Below are positions 8,889-57,714 of a stretch of DNA of 64,000 nt, one piece after another (position 1 is the first letter of the stretch; every line of letters begins with the position of its first letter). Position numbers and translations under genes: made by a program. This stretch comes from Somniosus microcephalus. Taxonomy: Eukaryota. The DNA is taken from positions 204,972,001-205,036,000 of the forward strand of contig CM126203.1 in the NCBI GenBank assembly GCA_052327205.1, read 5' to 3'. The notes under the pieces were generated by a model. It worked only from the letters and a program-made list of their open reading frames with translations. It did no database searches and had not been told where the DNA came from.

Positions 8889-11800
8889 TGTGGTAAACCA
8901 CTGTTATTGTATCCTACTGTTATCGTTATTGCATATTGTTACCTCTGGTTGGCGCTGTGTACCAATGCATGCCTCAGCTGGCTCCGCCCACATGACCAGG
9001 TATAAAGGCGGGTGTTTCGGCAACCCACTTCCTTCTTGGAACCAGTTGGCCATGAGAGGCATGCTCTGTTCTTTAGTTAATAAAAACCTCTTCATCACTT
9101 TCCTAATTCATCGCCTTTTATGGAGTAATTGATAAGCGTATCAATTTTATTAACTAAAAGTAAAATGTCCGGAACTGAGCAGCAACAACAGCAGGCATTG
9201 CTGCGAGCCCTCAGACCAGCATGCCTGGACCTCGACCCTCAAGCAGCGGGTTCATCGACCAATTTCGAACACTGGCTGAGCTGCTTTGCATCCTTCCTAG
9301 AAGCCTCCGCCGTGACATCGGAGGAGAACAAACTAAAGGTTTTGACCGCCCAGGTGAGCCCTCAAGTATATACACTCATCCAGGACGCTACTACGTACAC
9401 GGCGGCCCTCGAACTACTAAAAGGGCAATACACGCGCCCAGTGAACACGATTTACGCCAGACACCTCTTGGGATCCCGCAGGCAGCAACTGGGGGAATCG
9501 GTAGAGGCATTTTTACGGGCGTTACAGACGCTCTGCAGGGACTGCGACTGTAAGGAAGTAACAGCTGCGGGGCACGCGGAGGGACTTACCTGTGATGCCT
9601 TCGTTAGGGGCCTCCAGTCCGACTACTCCCGGCAGAGACTGCTCGAAAGCAAGGAGCTCGACCTGAAGACGACCGTAGCCCTTGCGCTCTTGTTAGATGC
9701 GGCCCACCGAAACCTCGAAGCATACTCACGTAACGGCGCCGCGCCATGGCCATCGCGACCTTGGGACATGGGACCGCCGCCCCCGGTACCAACTGCTGCA
9801 GCGATGTCCCGAAATCAACCGGGACCGCCGCCCCCGGTACCAACCGCAGCGATGCCCCGTAACCAGGCCCAAAAATGCTATTTCTGTGGCCAGTTAAAAC
9901 ACCCTAGAGCGCGCTGCCCGGCTAAGACCGCTACCTGCTCGGGCTGCGGGAAGAAAGGCCATTACGCCAATGCCTGCAGGGGGAAACCCGCGAACGCCAG
10001 CAGCGCCGCATGCGAACCGTGGGGGCAGCCATCTTATCCGCCATTTTGTGCACCTCCGGCCGCGTGGGGACCTGAATCATGGCCGCCGCCATTTTGTCTG
10101 CTGCACTCAACCGCCATTTTGTCTCCGGACTCGACCACCGTCTCGTCGGATGACCATATCGACTCACTAAGCCATACACTGGCCTCCGTTACGCTGGATC
10201 AAGCCCTGCCTCATCATCTGTCCAGGTCCATGATGGACATCACGGTAAAAGGCCGCGCCACCACTTGCCTATTTGACAGCGGGAGCACAGAGAGTTTTAT
10301 TCACCCCGACACGGTACGTAGCCACTCCCTCACGGTCCTGCCAACGCGCCATCGGATTTCTATGGCGTCTAAGTCCCATTCAATGGACGTCGGCGGCTAC
10401 TGTGTGGTGACCCTTTCGGTTAGGGGCACAGAATATAAAAATTTTAAACTTCTTGTCCTGCCCCGTCTTTGCGCTGCCGTGCTGCTAGGGTTGGATTTTC
10501 AGTGCCACCTTAAAAGTGTCACATTAGCATACGGTGGACCCCTCCCCCCACTCACAGTCTGCAACCAACACCTTTTAAATCGCCCGCCGCACACCACTTG
10601 CAGCCTTTCCACACTCAAAGTCCCCCCCCTCCCTTGTTCGCTAACCTCACCCGCAACTGTAAACCCATCGCTACCAAGAGCAGGCAGTACAGCGCCGGGG
10701 ACAGAGCTTTTATTAGCTCTGAGGTGGAGCGGCTCCTGAAGGAGGGCATTATTGAAGGGAGCACCAGCCCCTGGCGAGCCCAGGTTGTAGTCGTTAAAAC
10801 CACCGATAAACGCCGCCTGGTCATTGACTACAGCCAAACCATAAACCGGTACACTCAGCTGGACGCATACCCCCTTCCTCGCATATCTGATATGGTCAAT
10901 CAGATTGCGCAATACAGAGTATTCTCCACCATTGACCTTAAGTCAGCATACCACCAACTCCCCATCCGCCATGAGGACCGCCAGTATACCGCCTTCGAGG
11001 TGAACGGCCGCCTCTACCACTTCCTTAGGGTTCCCTTCGGCGTCACCAACGGGGTTTCGGTCTTCCAAAGGGAGATGGACCGGATGGTTGACCAGAACGC
11101 GCTGCAGGCCACCTTTCCCTACCTGGATAACGTCACCATCTGCGGCCACGACCAGCAGGACCATGACGCTAATCTAGAAAAATTCCTCCGTACGGCCCAG
11201 CGGCTGAACCTAACGTACAATAAGGAGAAATGTATGTTTCGCACCAAACGCCTTGCCATTCTCGGCTGCGTAGTGGAGAACGGAGTCATCGGGCCCGACC
11301 CCGACAGAATGCGCCCCCTTATGGAGCTCCCCCTCCCCCACTGCCAAAAAGCACTGAAGAGATGCCTGGGGTTTTTCTCTTACTATGCTCAGTGGGTGCC
11401 CCACTATGCGGACAAAGCCAGACCCCTCATCAAATCCACCTCCTTCCCCCTGACACCAGAGGCGTGTGCAGCCTTCACTCTTATCAAGAGCGATATTGCG
11501 AAGGCCACAATGCACGCAGTGGATGAGTCCATCCCCTTCCAAGTGGAGAGCGATGCATCCGACTTCGCCCTAGCTGCGACCCTTAACCAGGCGGGGAGAC
11601 CCGTGGCCTTTTTCTCAAGGACCCTCCAGGGCCCCGGGATTTGACACTCCTCTGTCGAAAAGGAGGCCGAGGCTATTGTGGAAGCGGTGCGTCACTGGAG
11701 GCATTACCTGGCCGGAAAACGGTTTACCCTTCTCACTGACCAGCGTTCAGTTGCTTTTATGTTCAATAATAAGCAGAGGGGCAAAATCAAGAACGACAAG

Positions 11801-13279
11801 ATCTTGAGGTGGAGAATTGAACTCTCCACCTACAATTACGATATCTTGTACCGGCCCGGGAAACTCAATGAGCCCCCAGATGCCCTATCATGTGGTACAT
11901 GCGCCAACGCGCAGGTTAATAGACTGCAGTCCCTCCACAATGACCTCTGCCACCCGGGGGTCACCAGGTTCTTCCATTTCATCAAATCCCGTAACCTGCC
12001 TTACTCCATCGAGGAGGTCAGGACCATGACCAGGAACTGCCAAATCTGTGCTGAGTGCAAACCGCATTTTTATAGGCCAGACAGAGCAAGCCTGATCAAG
12101 GCCACTCGCCCCTTCGAGCGCCTGAGCGTCGATTTTAAAGGGCCCCTCCCCTCCTCTGACCGCAATGTGTACTTCCTCAACATAATTGATGAGTACTCCC
12201 GTTTCCCGTTCGCCATCCCTTGCCCAGACATGACCAGTACCACGGTCATCAAATGTCTGAATGACCTCTTCACCCTGTTCGGGTTCCCTAGCTATATACA
12301 TAGCGACAGGGGCTCATCTTTCATGAGCGACGAACTTCGTCAGTACCTGCTCGCGAGAGGTATTGCTACGAGCAGGACCACCAGCTACAACCCCCGGGGG
12401 AACGGCCAGGTGGAAAGAGAGAACGCGACGGTTTGGAAGGCCGTCCTCTTAGCCTTAAAATCTAAGGGCCTTCCTCCCTCTCGCTGGCAGGAGGTCCTCC
12501 CTGCGGCGCTCCACTCCATCCGGCCACTGCTTTGTACTGCCACTAATGCCACCCCTCATGAGCAAATGTTCGTTTTCCCCAGGAAGTCCACATCGGGAAC
12601 CTCGCTACCGACATGGCTGACTTCTCCTGGGCCCGTCCTACTGCGGAGGCACGTGAGGACCCATAAAACAGACCCCCTGGTCGAGAGGGTGAACCTCCTA
12701 CACGCCAACCCCCAGTATGCCTACGTGGCGTACCCAGACGGGCGGGAGGACACGGTCTCCATACGAGACCTCGCACCCTCGGGTGCCCCTGAATTACCAC
12801 CGTTATCCCCCACCACTTCTCCCAACCCAACCCCTGTAGAAGGCATGCCGGAGCCCCAGGACCCTTCGTTGACCACCCAGACACCAGATTCGACGTTGGA
12901 TACTGCACCACCGCCGCCGCCACCACGATGATCAGGACGTCATACAAGGCCTCCTGATAGACTTACCTACACGAACTTGTAGTACACTTCACCCCGCCGG
13001 ACTAAATTTTAAACAAGGGGTGAATGTGGTAAACCACTGTTATTGTATCCTACGGTTATCGTTATTGCATATTGTTACCTCTGGTTGGCGCTGTGTACCA
13101 ATGCATGCCTCAGCTGGCTCCGCCCACATGACCAGGTATAAAGGTGGGTGTTTCGGCAACCCACTTCCTTCTTGGAACCAGTTGGCCACGAGAGGCATGC
13201 TCTGTTCTTTAGTTAATAAAAACCTCTTCATTACTTTCCTAATTCATCGCCTTTTATGGAGTAATTGATAAGCGTATCA
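8889..13279 (+). mobile_element. Full-length Ty3/Gypsy LTR retrotransposon A
   Basis: 255-bp TG..CA LTRs at 8889-9143 and 13025-13279 (4 mismatches), TSD GACAT, PPT aaacaaggggtgaa, gag-PR-RT-RH-IN order; no TGG-type PBS. Confidence 0.97.
9165..12982 (+). pseudogene. Gypsy A gag-pol (disrupted)
   Basis: Two CCHC knuckles, protease LFDSGS, RT YLDN, RNase H DAS, integrase HH-CC and DDE region. Frameshift at poly-C ~10621-10633; in-frame TGA at 11642 and 12929 (probable CGA>TGA). Confidence 0.92.
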
Positions 13280-21075: not shown

Positions 21076-24000
21076 TGTTAAATCCGTGAATCTTGATGTA
21101 TGGTGTCCTTCAATAAATAGACAGAGACTGCAGAGGAACAATCAACGGTGTTTACTGGATGAGGGTTACTCTAAAACTTACAGTACAGATCCCTACTCAG
21201 GGTTTGTATACAGGTGTGGTCACTGCCGGTACTACAGTATACAGGAGCTGTAAAAAGTAGTTCTCCCCTTAAAAGGTACATACACTACAATTCCTCCCCT
21301 TTTAAATTAACAGCACCATAACATTCATTTAACAATTAACACTTTTAACATGCAACATTAACTGAAAATAGTCCATTTATAAATTCAGTCTTTGGGGCGG
21401 CTTCCTGATCCTTTCTGGATAGTGCCTTTCCTGAGTGTCTTGCTCTTGGTACGGAGGCGATTCCGGCCCCCTGTCGTCGGTTGGCTCATCAGCTTCCGAT
21501 GCTACTGTTTCTGGGGTAGATGCTACCTGTATGTCGGGTTCATCACCAGGTACGCGAGACATGGGGTTGACTCGTTCCTGTGACTCTGGGATCTGGTCGA
21601 CATGGCGTCTCACAGTGTTCTCCCCAACATCCACTGTGTACATTAGTGGCCTCTGCCGTGTGCATATCATTCCTGGTTGCCATTTCTCTGTTCGGTAGTC
21701 GCGGGCCAAGACTGATTGCCCTACATTGAAGCTCCTTGTCGGCTTCTCATGGATATGCTGGAATTGCTTATTCTCAACATCTCTTCGTACATTTGGTCTG
21801 AACAAATCCATACGAGATCTCAACCTTCGGTTAAAGAACATCATGGCTGGGGTCTGGTTGGTGACTGCATGTGTCGCATTTCTGTAGGCTAACAGGAAAT
21901 TGTCCACCTTGTGCTGCAGTGGAATGTCGTCATCGCACATGGCCCTTACTGCTTTCTTAAAGGTTTCTACGAACCTCTCAGCCAATCCATTTGTGGCTGG
22001 ATGATACGGGGCGGATGTGAAATGCTTTACCCCATTCCTCTTCATAAATCTTCGAAACTCCTCAGACACAAACTGTGGTCCGTTATCAGAGCAAATCTGC
22101 TCTGGCAAGCCGTTCCTGGCAAATATGGTCCGTAGGACTGCAATAGTTTTCTCCGTGGTGGTGGAGGACATCTTGATCACCTCAGGCCATTTTGAGTGCG
22201 CATCCATGGCTATTAAAAACATTGAGTCCATGAATGGACCAGCAAAATCAATATGCACCCGTTGCCATGGAGATGAGGGCCACTCCCATGGGTGTAGAGG
22301 GGCATGTGGTGGTGCATTTTGGACCTTCTGGCATCCTGAGCAGCTCTTTGTCAGGTCCTTGATTTGCTGATCGATCCCCAGCCACCACACATAAGCCCTA
22401 GCAAGGCTTTTCATTTTCACCCCTCCCAGATGGCCTTCGTGAAGCTCATTGAGCACTCTCTCCCTTAACGTGGGTGGAATTACCACTCGGGATCCACACA
22501 TCAAGGTCCCCTGGCATACTGACAGCTGTTCTCTTCTGGATGAGAATGCTGGCAACAGTGAGTCGTCATGTGTTGGCCATCCCTTCACCGTCAAGTCATA
22601 TACTGGAGACAGTGTCGGGTCATTTCGGGACTCCTTCTCTATATCAGCGTTAGTTACAGGCAAGCGTTCAATTATAGTCGAATGAAATATTTCGACAGGG
22701 TCCACTGCTGGTGCTTCCTCCGCAGTAGGCAGTGGCAGGCGTGATAGCCCATCAGCGTTTCCATGCTGTTTCGTGCCCTTGTACTCGATTTCATATTGGT
22801 TCGCCCCTAGAAAAAGGGACCATCTTTGTAGCCGTTGCGCAGTCATCACCGGAACGCCCTTCTTTGGATTAAAGATGGAGACAAGTGGTTGGTGGTCAGT
22901 CAGCAAGGTGAACTTCTGCCCGTGCAGATAGTGGTTGAACTTTTTCACTCCCCACACTAGGCTGAGGGCCTCCCTGTCAACCTGGGCGTAGTTACGCTCG
23001 GCTGAGGTTAGTGATCGTGACGCAAAGGCTATTGGCCTCTCTGAGCCGTCCGAGAATTTGTGCGACAGCACCGCTCCAATGCCATAGGGTGATGCATCAC
23101 ACGCCAACCTAATTGGTAATGCTGTGTTGAAATGAGCCAACACCTCTTTTGATGTGATCAATTCTTTGCTCTTCTGGAAAGCTCGTTTACATTCGTCATT
23201 CCACTTCCATGGTACCCCCGTTTGCAGTAGGGTGTTCAGTGGGTGTAGTACGGTAGACAAATTTGGCAAGAACTTATGGTAGTAGTTCACCAGCCCGAGG
23301 AACGACCTCAGTTGTGACACATTTTCCGGTGCTGGAGCCTTGACTGCTGCCTCAATCTTTTCAGGGGAATTATGTAACACCTCTTCATCAATAACGTGGC
23401 CACAATACGAGATCTGCTTCTGGAAAAACTCGCATTTGTGGCGATTAGCTCGGAGCCCGTATTCCTTCAATCTAGTGAGCACCTGCTCCAGATTGGCGAG
23501 GTGATCACTGTCATTTTCGCCCGTGACCAGGATGTCATCCAAATAACACTGGGTCCCTGGAATCCCTTGCAGGACTTGATCCATTGCCCTTTGCCAAATA
23601 GCCGGAGCAGATGCTACCCCGAACACCAGCCTGTTGTATTGGTAGAGACCTTTATGAGTGTTGATCGTGAGGTACTGTTTCGAGGCTTCTTCTACCTCCA
23701 TTTGCAGGTACGCCTGGGCCAGATCAATCTTAGTGAAGCATTTCCCTCCAGATAGCGAGGCGAAAATATCTTCAATCCGTGGAATCGGATATTGTACCGT
23801 GTGAAGGATTGGGTTCACTGTCACCTTAAAGTCCCCACAGATGCGAACCTTCTTTGGTTCCCCAGGCGTATTACTCAATGACCTCTTCATTACAGGAACG
23901 ATGGGTGTAGCCCACTCACTCCAGTCCACTTTGGACAGTACTCCTGAACGTTCCAAACCTTCCAGCTCTGCTTCGACAGCTGGGCGGATCGCATAAGGCA

Positions 24001-25985
24001 CCGGTCTGGCCTTAAAAAACTTTGGGCTTGCAGTTTCCTCTATTTTGATCGTCGCTGTTATGCCTTTTAGTGTTCCGAGTTCCTCCTGGAACACTTCTTG
24101 TGTGTCAGTTAGCATTTTTGACAGTCGTCCAGGTGTGACGTCGTCATCCTTTTTGGCATCTACAGTCAGTGCTTGTATGGAATGCCAATCTAGCTGTATC
24201 TTCACGTCCTAGTAGTGGTGGTCCTCCCTCTGGCAATACATATAGGTCCATTTTTGGTGTTTCCTTGCCGTTATATATAACGTTCACCCTTATTTTTCCT
24301 TTGGGGTAGATTTTTTGCCCCGTGTACGTCTTCAAGACGATCTCTGTATCTCTCAAGGGTATATGTGAGAATGGACGCTTGTAGTCCCTTCGGTTTATGA
24401 CTGTTAGGGCTGATCCTGTGTCCAATTCCATTTTCACTTGGACTCCGGCTATCTTGAGCGTGACCCAGATAGTTTGGTGATCCTCCGTTTTGATCACATT
24501 ATGTAGTTTCAGACAACCCAGCTCCTTGCTTCCGGAGTCTGTATCCCTTTTCTGTTCGTCTGAACTACTCTCCGTCACCTTATGTACCTTCTTGTACTTC
24601 TCCTGTGGAGATTTCTTGCTGCTGGTTTTCTTTTCCAACCTGCAGACTCTTGCTATGTGTCCTACTTTTCCACACTGTCTGCACACTTGGTCCTTGAACC
24701 AGCAATCCTTATGCTCGTGTGTTGTTCTGCCGCAGCGACAGCACTTCACTGCTCCGTATGCCATTTCATTTGTGCCATATTCTTGCGGTCTCCGTTGTAT
24801 CTCAGCCATGCCCCGTGCTGCTGCTTCATGTGATACTGCCATGCTGAAAGCCTTGTCCAGCTTAAGATCCTTTTCTGATAGAAGCTGGTTCTGGGTTCCT
24901 TCACTTTGAAGCCCACACACGAACTTGTCCCTTAAAGTATCTGCTGGTCCCGTTCCAAACTGGCAGTGTTTCAATAGCTTGCGCAGTTCCGTTAAATACT
25001 CAGCATTACTTTCATCTTTATGCTGGTTCCTTTTGTGAAACTTAAATCTTTCTGCTATCAGCAGCGGTGTGGGGTTTAAAAGAGGTCCCGTAGGATTGAC
25101 ACTATGTTTTCAAAATTCTTTTCCGCTGGTTTCTCTGGGGTTACTAGGTTTCGCAGTAAGCCATACGTTTTTGCACCCATTGAATTCAACAATACCAGTG
25201 CTTTCTTGTCATCTGGCACTTCATTTGCCTTGTAGTATACTTCAATGCGTTCGACATATGTCGTCCAATCTTCGACTTCATTGTCGAACGCTGTGATACT
25301 GCCACTCTTCGGCATTTTTTTGTTGTTTTTCTTTTGGTGTGGTTAGACCGGCTCAAAATGGCATCTCCCGCGCTCTCCCTTCTTCTCCGCTGCGGCTCAA
25401 AATCGCGTCTCCCGCGCTCTCCCTTCTTCTCCGCTGCAGCTCAAAGGGCGTCTTCTGTGCTTTCCTCTCTTCCCCCGCGGATGCTGCTCAGCCCTTGAAC
25501 ACCGGCCGCGCTCTGCGCGTTTTCCTGCGCGTCTCTCTTGTTGACGCCACTCGGTCCTGAACCCCGGCTGCGCCCCGTGCGCTCTACCCTCTCTCTTACA
25601 CCGTCGACGCTGCTCGGTCTTCCCCTGTGCCGTCGGTCGGCTCCAGCCGCCGCCGTCCGGGAAGGGTCTGCGCCGTACCCGCTGCCAGCCCATCTCGCTG
25701 GTCGACGCCGTGCCCTTGGAATTGGCCTTCTTCTGCAGAGTTGCAGGTAGGTTTGAATCGACTCGTCGCCAATGTTAAATCCATGAATCTTGATGTATGG
25801 TGTCCTTCAATAAATAGACAGAGACTGCAGAGGAACAATCAACGGTGTTTACTGGATGAGGGTTACTCTAAAACTAACAGTACAGATCCGTACTCAGGGT
25901 TTATATACAGGTGTGGTCACTGCCGGTACTACAGTATACAGGAGCTGTAAAAAGTAGTTCTCCCCTTAAAGGTACATACACTACA
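21076..25985 (-). mobile_element. Full-length Ty3/Gypsy element B1 (Mag-like)
   Basis: LTRs 21076-21289 and 25773-25985 (4 substitutions + 1 indel), TSD CCTTC, PBS TGGCGACGAG (complement of tRNA-Ser(GCU) 3' end), PPT aaaaggggaggaa. Confidence 0.97.
21377..25315 (-). pseudogene. Gypsy B1 gag-pol (frameshifted; RT-RH-IN open as a 942-aa ORF)
   Basis: Gag MPKSGSITAFD, two CCHC knuckles, PR LDTGS, RT YLDD, IN HIDFAGPF/SDNGPQF/NGLAE. Confidence 0.93.
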
Positions 25986-27810: not shown

Positions 27811-28451
27811 CACTCCTGTGAAGTGACTTGGGACGTTTCATAGTCTCATATGGGGAGAAATTGGGTCGCGCCCCCTTTGGGGCACTAACATCGCCAGGGC
27901 ATTAAAAGTAGCGCCCCTGCACCTGAAATTCACCGGTAGCACCCCAAGAGGGCTACTGGAAGCGCCCCGCCTCCCTCTTGGGGTGCTGCGAATGAATATC
28001 ATGGTGCTACGTGCTGCAGCGCCATGCTCTGCGGCTCGTTGCGCCGCAGTACTGCAGGCCTTCCTCCCCTTATTAAAGGGAAGGGGCCTAGCACAGCGTG
28101 ACCCAGGGCCCACCAGGGATCGGAGTGCTGGCAAAACAGCCCGGCACTCAAGAGAAGTGCTGGGCTCATGAAACGCAGCCGGCACTCCGTGGGGGGGCTG
28201 CAGAGGAGGCCGGGGACGGCAGAGGGGGCAGGTGCCAGCAGGCGGCCAGCAACAACAATGGCCGCCCAGCACCTCCCCTTTAATTTGTGCCGCCCCGGTC
28301 GCAGGTAGACCCCTGACCCCGTTGGACATAGCGTCCAGCGGTAAGTCCGGGGGCGCTACCGAAGATCATGGCCGGGGCGCTGCGCACGGCAATGGCGTCA
28401 TCGCCGGCAGTGCAACGCCGCAGGGCGCTAACGGTTACCGCTGCCGCTAAC

Positions 28452-31400
28452 TGTGGTGTATGTGCCTTTAAGAGCCCCTGTGTACTGTAATGCCGGTAGT
28501 GTCCACTCGGGCTATATAAGCCTGTATAGTGTCTTGTATCTTTTAGTTCACCTCCAGACTTTGTTCAGTAAAAACCTGTTAAACCAACTCCTGCATTCCG
28601 TGTCTCCATTACCACATGGATACAACAGTGGTGACGAATTGGAAACGGACTTATCTGCAACTCGGCAGCACCTCAAGGAGATCGATTCCTCAGACGAAGG
28701 TCGAAGAAGAAAAAAAAAGAAAAAACTCTGGTTTCACCAGCTAGCCAGGCTGGTGGCAGGTACTGCAATAATCCTTCCTGGGCGGCGGTCTGGGGCTCTA
28801 TCGGCTGGCTCTGCAGCGGGGCCGAGCAGCAAAGGCGGAGGCAAACAGAGACGGAGGGTGGAGCACTCGGGAGACGGCCAGCGCTGCAAAGCAGGTCGGC
28901 GTTCGGACCAAGCAGAGGGAGGGAAAAGTCCCAGAGAGTCCGGCGGGAACGAGTCTCCAACTATTAAAAATATCTGTATAAATAAAAACCGCGGAGAACA
29001 GCGTTGTCAGCAGCGGCAGCGGCGGGAAAGCGCGGGAAGCGCCATTTTTTCTCGGCAGGGAAGAAAGGAAAGCGCGGGAGGCACCATTTTTTTTCAGGAT
29101 GCCTAAGACTGGCAATATTACTGCTTTCGATAGTGATGTAGAGGATTGGACCACATATGTGGAAAGAGTGGAGGTATATTGCACAGCGAATGAAATAGAG
29201 GATGATAAAAAGGCATCGGTACTTCTAAATCTAATGGGCGCAAGGACATACGGGCTGTTACGAAACTTAATCACTCCAGCCAAACCGATGGACAAGAATT
29301 TTAAAGAGATTGTTGATACCCTACAGGAGCACTTAAACCCAACACCGCTGCTGATAGCGGAACGATTCAAATTCTTCAGGAGGAATCAGCACAAGAATGA
29401 AAGAAACGCTGATTACCTCACCGAATTAAGAAAGCTGTCAAAGCACTGCCAATTCGGGGCAGGGCTGGCAGATTGTCTTCGAGACAAATTTGTCTGCGGT
29501 CTCCTAAGTGAAGGAACACAGAAAAGGCTACTTTCTGATAAAGATTTAACACTGGACAAGGCTTTCAGTGCGGCTGTATCATACGAAGCAGGCGCAAGAG
29601 GAGCTGCAGAGATACAGCAAAAGCCACAGGACTTCGGCACCCATGAAATGACACAGGGTTTCGAGAGATGTTATCGCTGCGGCAGATCCACCCATGACCA
29701 GAGGAACTGCTGGTTCAAGGACAAAGCATGCAGGCAATGCGGAAAGATGGGACACATTGCACGTGTATGCCGATCTGGAAACAAAAAATCCACTGACAGA
29801 AAAAAAATCAATAAGGAAAAGTACAGAAAGGTACAAATGATGACGGACAGTAGCTCCGAAGACCAGAAGAGCGATAGCGACTCCGGAAACAAGAGACTAA
29901 GCTGTCTCAAATTACATAATGTAATTGCCAAAGAAGATTACCAGACCATTTGGGTTACCCTCACGATAGCGGGGTTCCCCAGTTAAAATGGAGCTAGATA
30001 CAGGATCAGCTCTGACCGTCATAAGTCGACGGGATTACGAGCGGCTATTTCCGCATATACCTTTGAAAGACACATCCATTATCTTGAAAATATATACAGG
30101 GCAGAAAGTATACCCCAGAGGGAAAATAAGGGTGCCTGTTGTATACAACGGCAAGGAAATACAGAAGGTGTATTTATACGTTCTGCAAGATGGTGGTCCA
30201 CCGCTGTTGGGACGTGAATGGACCAGGCAGATACGTTTAGACTGGCACTCCATTCAGGCACTGACGGTGACCAGTAAGAAAAAAAATGATGATGACGTCA
30301 TACCTGAACGATTAAAAGACATCTTGGCCAACGCCAAAGAAGTGTTTCAACAGGAACTAAGAACCTTGAAAGGCATCACCGCCTCAATAAAAGTAGAAGA
30401 TGCGGCAATTCCCAAGTTTATTAAGGCAAGGCCAGTGCCATACGCAATTCGTCCAGCAGTCGAGGCAGAGCTGGAGAATTTGGAAAAGGCAGGCATGTTA
30501 TCCAAGATAGATTGGAGCGAGTGGGCAACACCCATCGTCCCGGTCATGAAGAAAACGTTGAATAATGATAAAGCTGAAGAACAGAGAAAAATTAGCATCT
30601 GTGGGGACTTCAAGGTGACTGTAAACCCGGTCCTTCACATGGTACAGTATCCTCTTCCGAGGATAGAAGATATTTTCGCCTCACTATCAGGAGGGAAACG
30701 TTTCACCAAAATTGACTTGGCACAGGCATATCTACAGATGGAGGTTGAGGAGGCCTCTAAAAAGTATCTCACGATAAACACACACTTTTTTGTAACTTTT
30801 GAAACTTTTGAAACCGGAACGCTTGGATTTGGACCCGCATGCTTCGGATGCATCGGCACGGTTTGGACACTGGTTCCAGTGCTTGGAATTTTTTATGGCC
30901 AACTCCGAAGCCGTCACAGCCTCTAAAGCCACCGGAGATGTGAAACTCGGGATCCTGCAGAATCGGGTAAGCCACCGGGTTTTTCCACTCATCCAAGACG
31001 CCGCCACCTACCTGGATGCCTGCAACATTCTAAAGGCCCACTATCAGCGGCCTACCAATGAGGTGTACGCCAGGCACCTGCTTGCTACCTGCACACAGCG
31101 ACCCGGAGAGTCGCTAGAGGACTTTCTAGTCACCCTAAAAGTGCTTGGCAAAGACTGCAAATGCAAAGACGTGAAAGCCACGGTATACACAGACGAGCTT
31201 ATTCGGGATGCCTTTATCGCAGGCCTTAGCTCTAATTACATCTGGCAGAGACTGCTAGAGAAAACGGGCCTAGATCTGACACAGGCTGTGGACACAGCGT
31301 GATCGCTGGATGTGGCTCAGAAGAACTCTGACTCCTACTCGTCAGGCCGCGCGGCCCACGCCGCCTCTGCTTCCCCGCCCGGTAGCCCAACACCGTCGGG

Positions 31401-34400
31401 GCCCTGCTCTCCCCCCAGAAGCCCTACGACCGCCGCGACGCATCGGGGCCCCAAATGCTACTTCTGCGGGCAGCCGAAGCGCACCAGGAACCTGTGCCCG
31501 GCGAAAGGCACCACCTGCTGTAAGTGCGGTAAGAAGGGGCACTTTGGGAAGGTGTGCAGAGGGAACCCTGCAGGCAAAACCGCCACCGCCGTGTGCGCGC
31601 CGTGGGAGCGGCCATCTTGGACGCCATCTTGTCCGACCTCGTGGGGTCCGACATCTCGCGAGCAGATATCGTGGACGCCATCTTCCCGGCCTCGTGTGGC
31701 CCACCATCTTGTCCCGATCAGGGCCCTACAGTGGCATCGATCACAGTGGACCAGTCCAGACCGCACCCACTATCCAAATCGATGGTGGACATCGAGGTAA
31801 ACGGGTGCAAGGTTAAATGTTTAATTGACAGCGGGAGCACGGAGAGCTTCATTCACCCTGATCTGGTACAATGACTCTCTCTAACTATAGTCCCGACTCA
31901 GGGCAGAACCAAATCGCCCAATACCGGGTGTTCTCCACCATCGACCTCAAGTCAGCGTATCACCAGCTCCCTATCAGACCAGAGGACCGTTCGTACACCG
32001 CCTTCGAGGCAAACGGACGCCTCTACCAGTTCCTCAGAGTCCCCTTTGGGGTGACGAAAGGGGTCTCGGTCTTTCAGAGGGAGATGGACTGCATGGTCGA
32101 TGACCACCACTTGCAGGCAACCTTCCCCTATCTCGACAACGTCACCATCTGCTGCCACAGCCAACAGGACCACGACTCAAACCTCGCGAGGTTTCTGAAA
32201 ACCGCACAAAAACTCAACCTCACCTACAACGAGGACAAGTGCGTTTTCAACACCACGCGCCTCTGCATACTAGGCAGCGTGGTGGAGAATGGGGAAGTCA
32301 GACCAGACCCCGACCAATTGCGCCCCCTACGGGAGCTGCCCCTGCCCAACACTCCCAAAGCCTTGTTTTATTCAGTTAACTTTGAGTCTTGAAGTTACAA
32401 AAAGTCTTGAAGTTACAAAAGTCAAAAGTTTCAAAAGGATTGTACCAGTACAATCGACTGGTTTTCGGAGTAGCATCAGCTCCAGCTATCTGGCAAAGAG
32501 CTATGGAGCAAGTCCTGCAAGGGATTCCAAGGACTCAATGCTACCTAGACGACATCCTTGTAACAGGAGAAAACGACAACGAGCACCTTGCCAATTTGGA
32601 GCAGGTGCTCACTAGGCTGAGAGAACAGGGCCTACGAGCAAATCGCCCCAAGTGTGAATTTTTCCAGAAACAAATATCATATTGTGGCCACATAATCAAC
32701 GAAGAAGGGTTGCATAAGTCACCTGAAAAAATTGAAGCGGTCATAAAAGCCCCTGCACCTGAAAATGTCTCACAATTAAGGTCGTTCCTGGGATTGATAA
32801 ATTACTATCATAAATTTTTACCGAACTTGTCAACTGTTCTGCACCCTCTTAACAAACTGCTACAAACGGGAGTAAATTGGAAATGGAGCAAAGGCTGTAA
32901 AAGTGCCTTCCATAAATGTAAAGGCTTGATCACGTCCAAGGAAGTTTTGGCTCATTACAACCCATCACTGCCAATCAGACTGGCGTGCGATGCATCCCTT
33001 TACGGCGTAGGAGCGGTATTATCGCATAGTTTCCCTGATGGCTCGGAGCGGCCGATAGCTTTTGCGTCACGCTCATTGAACTCAGCTGAGCGTAACTATG
33101 CCCAGATCGACAGGGAAGCACTCAGCCTGGTGTGGGGAGTGAAGAAATTCAACCATTACCTACACGGACAAAAATTTTCCTTGTTGACTGACCATCAACC
33201 CCTCGTCTCCATATTCAACCCTAAAAAGGGCGTTCCCATTATGACAGCGCAAAGGCTACAGAGGTGGTCCCTTTTCCTAGGGGCACACCAATATGACATA
33301 GAATACAAAGGATCAAAACAGCATGGAAATGCTGAGGTTTATCGCGTCTACCGTTGCCAACGGTAGAAGAGGCACTTACAGTGGACCCAGTGGAGATGTT
33401 CCACTCAACCATAGTGGAATGTCTATCAGTAACAAATTCTACCATTGAAAAGGGAACGAGAAATGACCCGACTCTCTCACGAGTCTACGATTTAACGGTG
33501 AAGGGATGGCCAGCACATCGCGAACCACTGTTGCCAGCATTCTCGCAAAGAAGAGAACAGCTGTCAGTGTGCCGAGGAACCTTGATGTGTGGATCCAGAG
33601 TGGTGATTCCACTCAAACTCCAGGATAAAGTGCTGAAGGAGCTTCACGAGGGGCATCCGGGTGGAGTGAAAATGAAGAACCTAGCCAGAGCATTTGCGTG
33701 GGGGCCAGGTATCGATGGAGACATCGAAGAAATGACCAAGGGCTGTCTAAGATGCCAGAAGGTCCAAAACGCCCCACCACAGGCCCCTCTACATCCATGG
33801 AAGTGGCCCTCATCTCCATGGCAAAGGGTACACATCGACTTTGCTGGTCCATTTATGGACTCAATGTTCTTAATCGTGGTTGATGCACACTCCAAGTGGC
33901 CGGAGGTAATAAAGATGTCCTCCACCACCACGGAAAAAACCATCACAGTATTAAGAACCATATTTGCCAGGAATGGGCTGCCTGAACAGATCTGTTCTGA
34001 TAATGGACCGCAATTTGTGTCCGAAGAATTCAGGAAGTTCTTAAAAAAACAATGGGGTTAAGCACTACACGTCCGCCCCATACCATCCCGCCACCAATGG
34101 ATTGGCTGAAAGGTTTGTCCAGACCTTCAAGAAGGCCATAAAGGCCATGGTTAATGAAGACATAAATCTACAGCATAAGGTAGATAACTTCTTGTTTGCA
34201 TACAGGAATGCAACACATGTGGTTACAAACCAAACTCCTGCCATGATGTTTTTCAATAGAAGACTAGGATGCCGGCTGGATTTGATCAAGCCAAACATCA
34301 GAAGGGACGTAGAGAACCAGCAATTTCAAGGCATGAATGAAAGGCCAACTAGAACCTTCCAGATAGGTCAACATGTTTTGGCCCGGGACTACCGTACCGA

Positions 34401-34991
34401 GAAATGGCAGCCTGGAACTATTTGCACATGACTAGGACCGCTGATGCATACCGTGGACATTGGAGAAAGCATAATAAGGCGCCATGCTGACCAGATCATA
34501 GAGTCATCCGAAAAGGGACAACCTACACCACAACTCTATACGCCTAATGATGAAGCAGAGATACCCATAGTATCTACCTCCGATCCGGTGATACTGGAAC
34601 CACATGAACCCGACACTGGCATTCAAGCCGAATCGACCTTGCCAAAAGAACCTACTACACCACCGAGGCGTTATCCGGACCGAGTCAGGAAGCCTCCAGA
34701 GAGACTGAATTATAATTGATTAACTGCAGCAAATGTGTAGATTATTGTTCTTGTAAACATGTTAATTAATGATTACTTAAAATGTTATGTACTGGTTGTC
34801 TAAAAGGGGAGGAATTGTGGTGTATGTGCCTTTAAGAGCCCCTGTGTACTGTAATGCCGGTAGTGGCCACTCGGGCTATATAAGCCTGTATAGTGTCTTG
34901 TATCTTTTAGCTCACCTCCAGACTTTGTTCAGTAAAAACCTGTTAAACCAACTCCTGCATTCCGTGTCTCCATTAACACATGAATACAACA
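28452..34991 (+). mobile_element. Full-length Ty3/Gypsy element C (Mag-like, relative of B) carrying a foreign insert
   Basis: 176-bp LTRs 28452-28627 and 34816-34991 (4 mismatches), TSD CTAAC, PBS TGGTGACGA, PPT aaaaggggaggaa; disrupted gag-pol 29099-34719. Confidence 0.96.
30786..32433 (+). mobile_element. LTR-less, internally deleted gag-PR-RT segment of a Gypsy A-lineage element
   Basis: KPERLDLDP, CCHC x2, LIDSGSTESFIHPD, NQIAQYRVFSTIDLKSAYHQLP, YLDNVTIC, all homologous to element A; inserted between TINTH and KGLY of element C. Confidence 0.9.
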
Positions 34992-35095
34992 CTAACCTCA
35001 CGCTGAATTTCATGGGAGGCGTTGGCAGCGCCGCGCCAAGGCACTAGTTACAGCGCTAACGGGAGGCACAAATGAACTGAATTTTTAGGCCATAT

Positions 35096-51950: not shown

Positions 51951-54900
51951 GGGGGAAAAAATTCAGTTGCTTTGCGCCTACCGTTAGCGCCCTAGCGGGG
52001 TGCAAAGCAACTAGCGCCCAGGCGCGGCACCGCCAACGCCTCCCACGAAATTCAGTGGGAGATTAGCGACAGCAGTAACTGTTAGCGCCCATGGTGCTGA
52101 ATAGCCGATGATGATGTTGTTAGATCCGTGTATCTTGATGTTGTATTTCCTTCAATAATGAGACAAGAGACTGCAGGGAACAATCAACAGGGTGTTTACT
52201 GGATGAGGGTTACTCTAAAACTAACGATACAGATCCCTACTCAGGGTTTATATACAGGTGTGGTCACTGCCGGCACTACAGTAGACAGGAGCTGTAAAAA
52301 GTAGTTCTCCCCTTAAAGGTACATACACTACAATTCCTCCCATTTTAGATTAACAGTACCATAACATTCATTTAACAATTAACACTTTTAACATGCAACA
52401 TTAACTGAAAATAGTCTATTTATAAATTCAGTCTTTGGGGAGGCTTCCTGATCCTTTCTGGATAGTGCCTTTCCTGAGTGTCTTGCTCTTGGTGCGGAGG
52501 CGATTCTGGCCCCCTGTCATCGGTTGGTTCATCAGCTTCCGATGCTACTGTTTCTGGGGTAGATGCTACCGGTATGTCGGGTTCATCACCAGGTACGTAT
52601 GGGCGAGACATGGGGTTGACTCGTTCCTGTGACTCTAGGATCTGGTCAACATGGCGTCTCACAATGTTCGCCCCAAAATCCACTGTGTACATTAGCGGCC
52701 CCTGCCGTGTGCATATCATTCCTGGTTGCCATTTCTCTGTTCGATAGTCGCGGGCCAAGACTGGTTGCCCTACATTGAAGCTTCTTGTCGACTTCTCATT
52801 GATGTTTTGGAATTTCTTATTCTCAACATCTCTTCGTACATTTGGTCTGAGCAAATCCAGACGAGATCTTAACCTTCGGCTAAAGAACATCATGGCCGGG
52901 GTCTGGTTGGTGACTGCATGTGTCGCATTTCTGTAGGCTAACAGGAAATTGTCCACCTTGTGCTGCAGTGGAATGTCATCATCGCACATGGCCCTTACTG
53001 CTTTCTTAAAGGTTTGTACGAACCTCTCAGCCAATCCATTTGTGGCTGGATGATACGGGGCGGATGTGTAATGCTTTACCCCATTCTTCTTCATAAATCT
53101 TCGAAACTCCTCGGACACAAACTGTGGTCCGTTATCAGAGCAAATCTGCTCTGGCAAGCCGTTCCTGGCAAATATGGTCCGTAGGACTGCAATAGTTTTC
53201 TCCGTGGAGGTGGAGGACATTTTGATCACCTCAGGTCATTTTGAGTGCGCATCCACGGCTATTAAAAACATTGAGTCCATGAATGGACCAGCAAAATCAA
53301 TATGCACCCGTTGCCATGGAGATGAGGGCCACTCCCATGGGTGTAGAGGGGCATGTGGTGGTGCATTTTGGAGCTTCTGGCATCCTGAGCAACTCTTTGT
53401 CAGGTCCTCGATTTGCTGATCGATCCCCGGTCACCACACATAAGCCCTAGCAAGGATTTTCATTTTCACCCCTCCCAGATGGCCTTCGTGAAGCTCATTG
53501 AGCACTCTCTCCTTTAACTTGGGTGGAATTACCACTCGGGATCCACACATCAAGGTCCCCTGGCATACTGACAGCTGTTCTCTTCTGGATGAGAATGCTG
53601 GCAACAGTGAGTCGCCATGTGTTGGCCATCCCTTCACCGTCAAGTCATATACCCGAGACAGTGTCGGGTCATTTTGGGTCTCCTTCTCTATCTCCGCGTT
53701 AGTTACAGGCAAGCGTTCAATTATAGTCGAATGAAATATTTCGACAGGGTCCACTGCTGGTGCTTCCTCTGCAGTAGGCAGTGGCAGGCGTGATAGCCCA
53801 TCAGCGTTTTAATGCTGTTTCGTGCCCTTATACTCGACTTCATATTGGTTCGCCCCTAGAAAAAGGGACCATCTTTGTAGCCGTTGCGCAGTCATCACCG
53901 GAACGCCCTTCTTTGGATTAAAGATGGAGACAAGTGGTTGGTGGTCAGTCAGCAAGGTGAACTTCTGCCCGTGCAGATAGTGGTTGAACTTTTTCACTCC
54001 CCACACTAGGCAGAGGGCCGCCCTGTCAATCTGGGCGTAGTTACGCTCGGCTGAGGTTAGTGATCGTGACGCAAAGGCTACTGGCCTCTCTGAGCCGTCC
54101 GAGAATTTGTGCGACAGCACTGCCCCAATGCCATAGGGTGATGCATCACACGCCAACCGAATTGGTAGTGCTGGGTTGAAATGAGCCAACACCTCTTTTG
54201 ATGTGATCAATTCTTTGCTCTTCTGGAAAGCTCGTTTACATTCGTCATTCCACTTCCATGGTACCCCCGTTTGCAGTAGGTTGTTCAGTGGGTGTAGTAC
54301 GGTGGACAAATTTGGCAAGAACTTATGGTAGTAGTTCACCAGCCCAAGGAACGACCTCAGTTGTGACACATTTTCCGGTGCTGGAGCCTTGACTACTGCC
54401 TCAATCTTTTCAGGGGACTTACGTAACCCCTCTTCATCAATAACGTGGCCACAATACGAGATCTGCTTCTGGAAAAACTCGCATTTGTGGCGATTAGCTC
54501 GGAGCCCATCTTCCTTCAATCTAGTGAGCACCTGCTCCAGGTTGGCGAGGTGATCACTGTCATTTTCGCCCATGACCAGGATGTCATCCAAATAACACTG
54601 GGTCCCTGGAATCCCTTGCAGGACTTGATCCATTGCCCTTTGCCAAATAGCTGGAGCTGATGCTACCCCGAACACCAGCCAGTTGTATTGGTAGAGACCT
54701 TTATGAGTGTTGATCGTGAGGTACTGTTTCGAGGCTTCTTCTACCTCCATTTGCAGGTACGCCTGGGCCAGATCAATCTTAGTGAAGCGTTTCCCTCCAG
54801 ATAGCGAGGCGAAAATATCTTCAATCCGCGGAAGCGGATATTGTACCGTGTGAAGGACTGGGTTCACTGTCACCTTAAAGTCCCCACAGATGTGAACATT

Positions 54901-57714
54901 CTTTGGTTCCCCAGGCATATTACTCAATGACCTCTTCATTACAGGAACGATGGGTGTAGCCCACTCACTCCAGTCCACTTTGGACAGTACTCCTGAACGT
55001 TCCAAACCTTCCAGCTCTGCTTCGACGGCTGGGCGGATCGCATAAGGCACCTTAAAAAACTCTGGCCTTGCATTTTCCTCTATTTTGATCGTCGCTGTTA
55101 TGCCTTTTAGTGTTCCAAGTTCCTCCTGGAACACTTCTTGTGCATCAGTTAGCATTTTTGACAGTCGTCCAGGTGTGACGTCGTCATCCTTTTTGGCATC
55201 TACAGTCAGTGCTTGTATGGAATGCCAATCTAGCTGTATCTTCCGGATCCACTCACATCCTAGTAGTGGTGGTCCACCATCTGGCAATACATATAGGTCC
55301 ATTTTTGGTGTTTCCTTGCCATTATATATAACGTTTACCCTTATTTTTCCTTTGGGGTAGACTTTTTGCCCCGTGTACGTCTTCAAGACGATCTCTGTAT
55401 CTCTCAAGGGTAGATGTGAGAATAGCCGCTTGTAGTCCCTTCGGTTTATGACTGTTAGGGCTGATCCTGTGTCCAATTCCATTTTCACTTGGACTCCGGC
55501 TATCTTGAGCGTGACCCAGATAGTTTGGTGATCCTCCATTTTAATCACATTATGTAGTTTCAGACAACCCAGCTCCTTGCTTCCGGAGTCTGTATCCCTT
55601 TCTGTTCGTCTGAACTACTCTCCGTCACTTTATGTACCTTCTTGTACTTCTCCTGTGGAGATTTCTTGCTGCTGGTTTTCTTTTCCGACCTGCAGACTCT
55701 TGCTATGTGTCCTACTTTTCCACACTGTCTGCACACTTGGTCCTTGAACCAGCAATCCTTATGGTCGTGTGTTGTTCTGCCGCAGCGACAGCACTTCACT
55801 GTTCCGTATGCCATTTCATTTGTGCCATATTCTTGCGGTCTCTGTTGTATCTCAGCCACGCCCCGTGCTGCTGCTTCATGTGATACTGCCATGCTGAAAG
55901 CCTTGTCCAGCGTAAGATCCTTTTCTGATAGAAGCCGTTTCTGAGTTCCTTCACTTTGAAGCCACACACGAACTTGTCCCTTAAAGTATCTGCTAGTCCC
56001 TTTCCAAACTGGCAGTGTTTTGATAGCTTGCGCAGTTCCGTTAAATACTCAGCATTACTTTCATCTTTATGCTGGTTCCTTTTGTGAAACTTAAATCTTT
56101 CTGCTATCAGCAGCGGTGTGGGGTTTAAGTGGTCCCGTAGGATTGACACTATGTTTTCAAAATTCTTTTCCGCTGGTTTCTCTCGGATTACTAGGTTTCG
56201 CAGTAAGCCATACGTTTTTGCACCCATTTAATTCAACAATACCAGCGCTTTCTTGTCATCTGGCACTTCATTTGCCTTGCAGTATACTTCAATGCGTTCG
56301 ACATATGTCGTCCAATCTTCGACTTCATTGTCGAACGCTGTGATACTGCCACTCTTCGGCATTCTTGGGTGTGGTTAGACTGGCTCAAAATGGCGTCTCC
56401 CACGCTCTCCCTTCTTCTCCGCTGTGGCTCAAAATGGCGTCTCCCGCGCTCTCCCTTCTTCTCTGCTGCGGCTCAAAATGGCGTCTCCCGCGCTCTCCCT
56501 TCTTAATAGCGTCTCCCGCGCTCTCCCTTCTTCTCCGCTGGAACTCGGCCCTTGAACACCGGCTGCGCTCTGCGCGTTTTCCTGCGTGCCTCTCTCTCTC
56601 TTTGCCGCTGCTTGGTCCTGAACACCGGCTGCGCCCTGTGCGCTCTACCCTCGCTCTTCTCCCGTCGACGCTGCTCGGCCTTTTCTGTGCCGTCGGTCGG
56701 CTCTAGCCGCTGCTGTCCGGGAAGGGTCTGCGCCGTACCTGCTGCCAGCCCGTTTAGCTGGACCACCGTGACTGGAGAACCAAGCCCAGCTCTCAACAGC
56801 CTCCCCTGCGATGCTCAAATCTCTGCTGGATGGTCAACGCCCGTGCTTCTGGACTCGGCCTTCTTCTTTCACTGTTCTCCAGGAGCGAATCCCTGAGAGG
56901 TGATGCAGAGTTGCAGGTAGGTTTGAATCACCTCGTCACCACTGTTAGATCCGTGTATCTTGATGTTGTATTTCCTTCAATAATGAGACAAGAGACTGCA
57001 GGGAACAATCAACAGGTGTTTACTGGATGAGGGTTACTCTAAAACTAATTATACAGATCCCTACTCAGGGTTTATATACAGGTGTGGTCACTGCCGGTAC
57101 TACAGTATACAGGAGCTGTAAAAAGTAGTTCTTCCCTTAAAGGTACATACACTACAGATGTCACCACCGTACGCAGCGACCCGCTCGCGCCCCGGCTGCG
57201 ATCATCGATAGCGCCCCCTGACTTATGCTATGTCTGATGGGGTCTGGGGGGCCTACCTGCGGCCAGGCCGGTGCTAGTTAAAGGGGAGGTGGCGGGTGGC
57301 CATTTTTGTTGCTGGCCGCCTGCCAGCACCTGCCCCCCGTTGCTGTCCCCGGCCCCCATGAAGCTCCCCCACGGGGTGCCGGCTGCTCTCCGTGAGCCAG
57401 GCACTCCTCGAGTGCCGGGCTTGTTTGCCGGCACTCCCGATCCCTGGTGGCCCAGCTGGGCGCTGGGGCATGCTGTGCCAGGCCCCTCCCCTTTAATAAG
57501 GGGAGGAAGTCCTGCAGTACCGCGGCACATAGCACTGTGATATTGCCTCGCAGCGCCCCAAGAGGGACGTGGGGCGCTTCCAGTAGCACCCCTCCTCCCT
57601 CTCGGGGCGCAACCTGGGAAAATCGGCCGCGGGGCCGCTAATTTTTTTGAGGTGCTAAAAGTGGCGCCCTGGCAAAGTTAGCACCCCAAAGGGAGCATGA
57701 ATCAATTTTTCCCC
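51951..57714. mobile_element. GC-rich MITE split by Gypsy B2
   Basis: Pieces 51951-52117 and 57157-57714 are reverse-complement homologs of 34992-35091 and 27852-28451. Confidence 0.75.
52118..57156 (-). mobile_element. Full-length Ty3/Gypsy element B2 (same family as B1)
   Basis: LTRs 52118-52332 and 56943-57156 (5 substitutions + 1 indel), TSD GATGT, PBS TGGTGACGAG; disrupted gag-pol 52420-56362, near-identical to B1. Confidence 0.97.

What the first reader, a model, noticed from the sequence alone, without database searches (positions are those of the whole stretch)
30786..32433. LTR-less Gypsy A-lineage segment patched into the RT of Gypsy C with inverted templated junctions
Seen: 1648 bp inserted exactly between codons H (30783-30785) and K (32434-32436), with no TSD and no loss. 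The insert has no LTRs, starts at the gag N-terminus, lacks roughly 0.55 kb between PR and RT (junction ~31905) and stops mid-RT. The right junction is a patchwork of reverse complements of the left: cttttgaaacttttga vs tcaaaagtttcaaaag (16 bp perfect), and tttttgtaactt vs aagttacaaaaa with gtcttgaagttacaaaa repeated. It also contains ttttattcagttaac, reminiscent of the post-LTR leader of element A. Inference: this was not integrase-mediated. It fits cDNA capture at a double-strand break (polymerase-theta-like iterative templating) or template switching between heterologous co-packaged RNAs.
Basis: partly seen in the sequence, partly recalled or inferred. Interest (0 to 1): 0.7.

Follow-up and report, generated by a model that had tools for sequence, protein, structure and literature searches.

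The report
Failed retrotransposon copy maps self-priming
A 1.65-kb broken copy of one jumping gene sits inside another, and it is likely a half-made DNA copy that was pasted into a chromosome break; it and ten similar copies in the genome break at the same spot, which likely marks where this family of jumping genes cuts its own RNA to start copying itself.

Summary
The insert and its inverted junction patches are real, but three details are wrong. It comes from a young sister family (98% identical, against 74% for element A). It is not LTR-less: it ends in 41 nt of the donor LTR, joined to mid-RT by 6 nt of microhomology. The host target is altered by 2 nt, probably a 7-nt loss refilled by templating.

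The LTR piece begins just after a 13-nt LTR segment that pairs with the primer site, a covarying stem seen in 28 of 42 relatives examined. The scan noted this stem before in other genomes. Eleven loci in three families join internal sequence to that same LTR position; four control windows show no such join (the family with most joins lacks a control). Another 67 loci read through the primer site into an inverted LTR arm, often stopping about 30 nt after the TATA-like box.

Best reading: a self-primed strong-stop cDNA jumped to the wrong site, lost the plus-strand primer site, and was captured without integrase at a break with polymerase-theta-like patches. Capture is a known process. The new part is a genomic map of both primer ends in a chromodomain-less animal Gypsy lineage.

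The parts
28452..28627 (+). Host Gypsy (family C) 5' LTR, preceded by a 5-bp TSD at 28447-28451 and followed by a TGG-type primer site
   Evidence: (D15, 97%)
29970..30785 (+). Host protease and N-terminal part of RT, ending at the insertion point
   Evidence: empty site in 29 of 29 copies
30786..30802 (+). Left templated patch (17 nt): a slipped repeat of the donor gag start plus an inverted copy of the right-end patch, with 2 nt of microhomology to the host
30803..31905 (+). Donor gag and N-terminal protease, starting 31 nt after the donor LTR end; broken by stops (one at about 31300)
   Evidence: 98.6% to the best donor copy
31906..32362 (+). Donor RT fragment, after a 505-nt internal gap with 0-1 nt of microhomology
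32357..32397 (+). Donor LTR piece (R-U5 downstream of the self-pairing poly(A)-signal segment), joined to RT by 6-nt microhomology at 32357-32362 and ending 13 nt short of the LTR end; the predicted trimmed minus-strand strong-stop cDNA. RNase H, integrase, the polypurine tract and U3 are skipped
32398..32440 (+). Right templated patch: a direct repeat of the LTR-piece end (13 nt), inverted copies of the gag start (7-10 nt each; 16 nt against the left junction), and probably a fold-back copy of the host flank giving the two changed bases
32441..33366 (+). Host RT C-terminal part and RNase H, resuming after the insert
34813..34991 (+). Host 3' LTR, followed by the TSD at 34992-34996
8889..13279 (+). 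Element A: a sister family of the donor (74%), not the source. It has the same self-pairing stem (LTR 9072-9085 with leader 9145-9158)

Best explanation
The insert is a single-copy, TSD-less mosaic of a sister Gypsy family (gag-PR, part of RT, then a 41-nt LTR piece), and it is likely a failed minus-strand cDNA that was captured without integrase at a double-strand break in the host element. Steps: (1) Shown: in this lineage the primer site pairs for 13-15 nt with the LTR segment that ends in the poly(A) hexamer, about 52 nt upstream. Inferred: the 5' ~55 nt of the RNA are cut off at the end of that stem and prime reverse transcription, Tf1-style. (2) Inferred: the resulting ~52-nt strong-stop cDNA annealed by 6 nt to a site inside RT instead of the 3' R region. 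Shown: the join lies at the stem end. (3) Shown: this skips the polypurine tract and U3. Inferred: the molecule could not be finished or integrated on its own and stayed single-stranded; a second jump removed 505 nt, at an unknown time. (4) Inferred: the fragment, trimmed by about 13 and 31 nt, was joined into a break in the host RT by iterative microhomology-primed synthesis (polymerase-theta-like), its two ends templating each other in inverted orientation.
For: Donor map and LTR piece. Stem in 28 of 42 elements examined, with 11 distinct perfectly paired 13-mers; own pairing averages 12.9 of 13 against 10.8 across families, and shuffled LTRs give at most 11. Internal-to-LTR joins at the stem end: 12 of 23 hits (11 loci, 3 families, 6 acceptor sites) in five test scans (sorted in 25, 55, 64, 71, 79), against 0 of 12 hits in four control windows. 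L082 and L140 end at the full LTR end plus 4 leader bases, and L137, L141 and L142 plus all 14, which a deletion in integrated DNA would not give. L140 is a near twin: gag start, internal jump, R-U5, no TSD. 67 loci read through the primer site into an inverted LTR arm. Of the 59 analysed, 27 arms end inside the LTR, 25 of them within 67 nt of the stem end against 6.5 expected; this is 22 of 24 after dropping three that resume further on. 7 of 9 donor arms stop at one landmark about 30 nt after the TATA-like box although their lengths differ. The junction patches parse into local templates. Precedents: PMC1976456, PMC10802722, PMC4516963, PMC7165422 (passages).
Against: No read evidence for the window's junctions: 4 contig runs show only empty sites and donor ends. 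RNA reads mapped neither a start nor a poly(A) site and showed no RT-to-R join. The family with 8 of the 11 join loci has no control window; in the families with controls the count is only 3 against 0, and two families gave no join in 8 hits. Acceptor sites recur (2, 2 and 4 loci), and 3 of the 11 loci have a 5' LTR and a 5-bp TSD, so deleted, integrated sources can exist. L143 has no microhomology downstream of the stem end. Two in-LTR deletions (L075, L133) affect the 3' LTR only, not both as a simple reverse-transcription origin predicts. 32 of 59 inverted arms run to the LTR start or beyond, which needs an extra template switch. The window copy is trimmed and lacks the cDNA-only bases. Neither the cleavage nor the polymerase is tested.
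Confidence: 0.68

Rival explanations
1. The RT-to-R join arose earlier, in an integrated and internally deleted master copy. Its transcript was reverse-transcribed and captured twice (window and L082). Capture at a break still holds, but the join is inherited.
For: The window and L082 share the exact acceptor. In a sister family, three TSD-flanked elements with a 5' LTR carry such joins (L139, L143, L144), and acceptors recur.
Against: Only 2 loci carry the donor-family join, allowing 2 mismatches, and neither could be a master. The window and L082 share no derived variant (weak, because the family is star-like). The rival does not explain why the LTR-side breakpoint sits at the stem end at 6 acceptor sites in 3 families.
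Confidence: 0.17
2. The joins and inversions are DNA-level events in integrated copies: microhomology deletions and template switches favoured by the 13-14-bp inverted repeat (stem and primer site). The fragment was then copied into the break from chromosomal DNA.
For: An inverted repeat with a 52-nt spacer is a plausible fragile or switching site. L131 fits a four-point template switch. The L075 and L133 deletions are in one LTR only.
Against: TSD-less fragments end in LTR end plus leader bases placed downstream of internal sequence, an order that no integrated copy has. Inverted arms stop at a TATA-linked landmark regardless of length. No source-locus flank was carried along in the window.
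Confidence: 0.07
3. The host RT switched onto a co-packaged donor template during its own reverse transcription and returned, giving a chimera that was then integrated.
For: Host and insert have similar private divergence: 42 of 3176 and 17 of 1554 sites, Fisher p = 0.58. The host has intact LTRs and a TSD.
Against: There is no homology at the junctions, but multi-patch templated filler. The same kind of fragment lies in non-Gypsy DNA. The chimera is single-copy.
Confidence: 0.04
4. The insert is an assembly error, a LINE-type retrocopy ending in poly(A), or a DNA transposon with terminal inverted repeats.
For: No read support was obtained. A short A run follows the LTR piece.
Against: The same RT-to-R join occurs on another contig. 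The insert has its own 1.1% private changes. The A runs are parts of inverted gag-start copies. Sister events end at different places, several beyond the LTR end. There is no TSD and no second copy of the junctions.
Confidence: 0.04

Closest known systems
Capture of Ty1 cDNA intermediates at double-strand breaks in yeast (PMC1976456, PMC10802722; passages read; the Moore & Haber 1996, Teng 1996 and Yu & Gabriel 1999 originals were not read)
   Same: Integrase-independent patching of a break with truncated, sometimes discontinuous retrotransposon cDNA; microhomology at the joints; cDNA-only bases at LTR ends.
   Different: Here it is a fixed natural insertion in a large animal genome, with both ends carrying iterative inverted patches, and the internal join recurs at a predicted primer-cleavage site.
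MuERV-L/MaLR capture at CRISPR breaks in mouse zygotes, 'RMDR' (PMC4516963; passages read)
   Same: A vertebrate LTR-element fragment, truncated at both ends, mostly without TSD, with 1-7 nt microhomologies.
   Different: No strong-stop mis-transfer or primer mapping appeared in the passages read, and those elements are retrovirus-like.
Tf1/Tf2/Tj1 and Tf1/sushi self-priming chromoviruses (PMC4600332, PMC10085805, PMC5341516, PMC11042837; passages read)
   Same: The primer site is complementary to the element's own LTR, cleavage is predicted at the end of the duplex, and primer-site bases stay at the ends of integrase-independent insertions.
   Different: The donor has no chromodomain hit. The pairing segment covers the poly(A) hexamer and lies about 40 nt inside the inferred RNA start, so the primer would be about 55 nt with the stem at its 3' end (11 nt in Tf1, recalled). 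The loop is only about 52 nt.
Polymerase-theta templated insertions (PMC7165422; passages read)
   Same: Short AT-rich direct and inverted copies of flanking DNA, made in several rounds.
   Different: The inverted templates here are the two ends of a 1.6-kb captured fragment. The enzyme cannot be named from sequence.

Membership tests
cDNA capture at a double-strand break | No TSD and no integrase att ends | tested here: met
cDNA capture at a double-strand break | Truncated or discontinuous element with microhomology joints | tested here: met
cDNA capture at a double-strand break | Bases found only in cDNA intermediates | tested here: inconclusive
   Trimmed off in the window copy; present in L082, L140, L137, L141, L142
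cDNA capture at a double-strand break | Dependence on reverse transcriptase and on a break | not testable with these tools
   needs experiment
Polymerase-theta templated insertion | Short AT-rich direct or inverted copies of flanks, in several rounds | tested here: met
   definition from PMC7165422 passages
Polymerase-theta templated insertion | Genetic dependence on POLQ | not testable with these tools
   none
Tf1/sushi self-priming chromoviruses | Primer site complementary to the element's own LTR | tested here: met
   28 of 42 elements, covarying
Tf1/sushi self-priming chromoviruses | No tRNA matches the primer site | not tested
   not compared with a tRNA set
Tf1/sushi self-priming chromoviruses | Pairing segment at the very 5' end of the RNA | tested here: not met
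   Indirect: TATA-like box 78-84 nt before the stem end, and inverted arms ending about 30 nt after it; RNA reads uninformative
Tf1/sushi self-priming chromoviruses | Chromodomain at the integrase C-terminus | tested here: not met
   no Pfam chromodomain at E <= 0.05 in the one donor polyprotein scanned
Tf1/sushi self-priming chromoviruses | Three-duplex 'pretzel' structure | tested here: inconclusive
   Predicted folds of 4 elements all show the stem, with differing inner helices
Tf1/sushi self-priming chromoviruses | Primer released by RNase H cleavage | not testable with these tools
   only the junction positions bear on it
Mobilised chimeric element | Several copies with the same insert | tested here: not met
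DNA transposon or LINE retrocopy | TIRs with a TSD and several copies, or poly(A) with a TSD | tested here: not met

The most novel reading that the evidence does not exclude
A very abundant, chromodomain-less animal Gypsy lineage primes reverse transcription with its own ~55-nt 5' leader, cut at the poly(A) hexamer; the A at position -1 at all 6 acceptor sites suggests the primer ends exactly in AAUAAA. The strong-stop cDNA is only about 52 nt and mis-transfers often, and the genome holds dozens of captured intermediates that map the RNA start, the cleavage site and the primer-cDNA junction at near-base resolution. The same pairing could also hide the 5' poly(A) signal.
Probability: 0.55. Interest if true: 0.75.

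Novelty: new variant of a known kind. Interest (0 to 1): 0.62.

Why it matters
According to the passages read, self-primed reverse transcription was demonstrated in yeast Tf1 and is only predicted elsewhere. Here failed intermediates fixed in an animal genome give evidence independent of base-pairing, and they predict exact RNA ends that one 5'-end or cDNA sequencing experiment can check. The approach (scanning a genome for joins at a predicted strong-stop end and for primer read-through) can be applied to any high-copy LTR family. It also shows natural germ-line capture of single-LTR cDNA with templated scars. The insert alone is one repair accident and has no evident function.

Tried and rejected
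Element A as donor: rejected at 74% identity. Splicing as the cause of the two gaps: no GT-AG ends on either strand. Poly(A) tail: rejected. A host subfamily carrying the two changed bases: the 3 other hits belong to a family about 70% identical. A shared-variant test for a common master: no shared derived site, and uninformative in a star-like family. Dating insert against host: indistinguishable.

Read support: no RNA holder was listed among the indexed runs. Four contig runs were laid and none was listed with a junction, which is inconclusive because contigs drop rare forms, the tables are cut and the individuals may differ. Two RNA runs had low LTR cover and gave no start, no poly(A) site and no RT-to-R joint.

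A first junction scan found only 2 in-LTR deletions. Test scans in two families gave 0 internal joins among 2 and 6 hits: a tandem duplication, two point variants, one U3-to-stem-end deletion with TSD, and four R-U5-only pieces of unclear origin. My first idea that L144 also begins at the stem end was withdrawn, because a nested insertion explains it. Priming by the RNA 3' end was considered; it is disfavoured by the arm ends near TATA+30, though 3 arms run far into the internal region. Control windows for the family with most joins were not run. The clade name was not settled: homologues are unnamed, with the best in sharks and rays. Levin 1996 (PMC231564) is not held.
Full report
Setting. 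The window is G000:C2:204972001-205036000 in a 6.4-Gb genome. The closest named RT homologues come from sharks and rays. The host is a Gypsy element with 176-nt LTRs that are 97% identical, a 5-bp TSD and a TGG-type primer site.

Observation. 29 of 29 fetched host-family copies have the empty site and no insert sequence. The insert has no TSD. Its junctions share a 16-nt perfect inverted match; the best in 5000 shuffles was 12 nt. Each internal junction pattern occurs once in the genome. Two bases next to the right junction (32439-32440) differ from all 29 host copies. They lie in an 8-nt inverted copy of the host's downstream flank, and no host subfamily has them. About 7 host bases were therefore probably lost and refilled, and the intact-looking codons are likely a coincidence.

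Source. Element A matches the insert at only 74%. The true donor is a young sister family: 40 scored hits at 99-100% out of 2210 candidates, about 4.37 kb long, with ~280-nt LTRs and 5-bp TSDs. The insert maps as follows: gag-PR from 31 nt after the LTR end (30803-31905); a 505-nt gap with 0-1 nt of microhomology; RT (31906-32362); then 41 nt of the LTR 3' part (32357-32397), joined by 6 nt of microhomology and ending 13 nt short. RNase H, integrase, the polypurine tract and U3 are skipped. This order (leader end to U5, with one partial LTR at the 3' side) is that of a minus-strand cDNA before second-strand transfer. This last point rests on established retroelement biology, recalled.

Primer stem. 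In the donor, the bases after the LTR end are complementary for 13 nt to the LTR segment that ends in the poly(A) hexamer. I examined 42 elements: 40 picked by hand to cover motif variants among the first 100 of 12,027 RT-motif hits, plus element A and one donor. 28 show the stem (27 of them 13-15 nt), 48-58 nt before the LTR end. 11 had no LTR pair, 2 had no called end and 1 was a false call. There are 11 distinct perfectly paired 13-mers. Own pairing averages 12.9 of 13 and cross-family pairing 10.8; shuffled LTRs reach at most 11. I held this reading before the look-up. Two earlier scan notes report the same stem in other genomes.

The join recurs at the stem end. The LTR piece in the window starts at the stem end. 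I scanned for foreign sequence within 4 nt upstream of that position, a pattern that by design catches about a third of such events. Five scans gave 23 hits. Twelve hits, at 11 loci in 3 families and 6 acceptor sites, join internal sequence to R-U5 there. The other 11 are in-LTR deletions, duplications or variants (5), R-U5-only pieces (4), one variant LTR with an inverted arm and one inverted insertion. Four control windows gave 12 hits and no such join. Caveats: 8 of the 11 loci belong to one family that has no control window; with controls the score is 3 against 0; and two families gave no join. By eye, 7 loci have no TSD, 3 have a 5' LTR and a 5-bp TSD, and 1 has a 5-bp repeat with one att-like end. 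L082 shares the window's acceptor but has different ends and lacks the 505-nt gap. L082 and L140 end at the LTR end plus 4 leader bases, and three loci plus 14. All 6 acceptors have A at position -1, against 0.15-0.24 in the background, which hints that the cut leaves the primer ending at the hexamer. L143 lacks downstream microhomology.

Primer read-through. Patterns for LTR end, primer site and then inverted LTR gave 38, 15 and 14 hits in three groups; 59 of the 67 were analysed. In 32 the inverted arm runs to the LTR start or beyond (3 of them far into the internal region). In 27 it ends inside the LTR, 25 of them within 67 nt of the stem end against 6.5 expected under uniform breakage. Dropping three arms that resume further on leaves 22 of 24. 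A TATA-like box lies 78-84 nt before the stem end in 6 reference LTRs. 7 of 9 donor arms stop within a few bases of one landmark about 30 nt after it, although repeat variation makes their lengths differ (about 51-65 nt). This argues for a template end, the RNA start, rather than a limit on synthesis length. The primer would then be the 5' ~55 nt of the RNA.

Capture. The right patch parses into a 13-nt direct repeat of the LTR-piece end and 7-10-nt inverted copies of the gag start. The left patch parses into a 12-nt slipped copy of the gag start and an inverted copy of the right patch. Short, AT-rich, multi-round direct and inverted templated insertions are described for polymerase theta, the inverted ones from intramolecular priming (PMC7165422, passages). 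Inverted cross-copying between ends 1.6 kb apart fits a single-stranded fragment (inference). Host and insert ages cannot be told apart: 42 of 3176 and 17 of 1554 private sites, p = 0.58.

What failed. No read evidence for the junctions was obtained, and RNA reads did not map any end. Two in-LTR deletions affect the 3' LTR only. The window and L082 share no derived variant, which does not separate independent mis-transfer from a lost master.

Relation to what is known. Capture of retrotransposon cDNA at breaks is established in yeast (PMC1976456; PMC10802722) and in mouse zygotes (PMC4516963). Primer-site bases are retained in integrase-independent Tf1 and HIV-1 insertions (PMC11042837). Self-priming is described for Tf1/sushi chromoviruses and predicted for plant Tcn1 and TAR lineages (PMC4600332, PMC10085805, PMC6317226, PMC5341516). 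The donor works like Tf1 but is not filed as Tf1/sushi: it has no chromodomain hit and its stem is not at the inferred RNA 5' end. Searches listed no paper on self-priming in a non-chromovirus animal Gypsy lineage or on genomic strong-stop mis-transfers. The library lacks most subscription papers, including Levin 1996; Butler 2001 and Repbase notes were not seen. All papers were read as keyword passages only, with no supplements. PMC3601003 and PMC2939329 added nothing decisive.

Verdict. Its value is as one of a class of trapped intermediates that likely map both ends of a self-primer in an animal Gypsy lineage. Best explanation 0.68; new variant of a known kind; interest 0.62.

Noticed in passing
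window 9072-9085 and 9145-9158: Element A has the same 14-bp stem between its poly(A)-signal segment and its primer site.
   Followed up: yes
L131 1470-1514 (G000:C11, near 3011244): An LTR with a 5-bp TSD carries, right at the stem end, an inverted copy of U5: the sequence expected of a primer joined to its first cDNA bases. A DNA template switch could also give it.
   Followed up: partly
L163 3626-6977 (G000:C3, near 157968000): A tandem-like molecule: R-U5, primer site, gag to RT, R-U5 again, primer site, then 1.7 kb inverted, with the same internal jump used twice.
   Followed up: partly
L139, L143, L144: Elements lacking the polypurine tract and 3' U3 are nevertheless flanked by 5-bp TSDs, which suggests that a plus-strand piece from a sibling molecule can rescue a mis-transferred minus strand.
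   Followed up: partly
L176-L234: About half of the primer read-through loci run inverted to the LTR start, and several then look integrated. Many of the others jump forward into internal sequence (aberrant second-strand transfer).
   Followed up: partly
L075/L170, L133/L172, L076/L169, L146: In-LTR deletions with one breakpoint at or next to the stem end. In the two full elements checked, only the 3' LTR is affected.
   Followed up: partly
L134; L148-L150: Isolated R-U5 pieces from the stem end to the LTR end. One follows what looks like another element's LTR end; three lie in a tandem array.
   Followed up: no
window 32398 onwards (missing 13 nt of the donor LTR): The 13 nt trimmed from the LTR end form a small hairpin with the first leader bases, and a similar hairpin is seen in sister families.
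   Followed up: no
window 21076-25970 and 52120-57141 (minus strand): Two copies of another Gypsy family related to the host (72-75% identity), 93-98% identical to each other.
   Followed up: no
G000 genome-wide: One codon variant of the donor-lineage RT motif alone has 12,027 exact matches, so the lineage is very abundant.
   Followed up: partly
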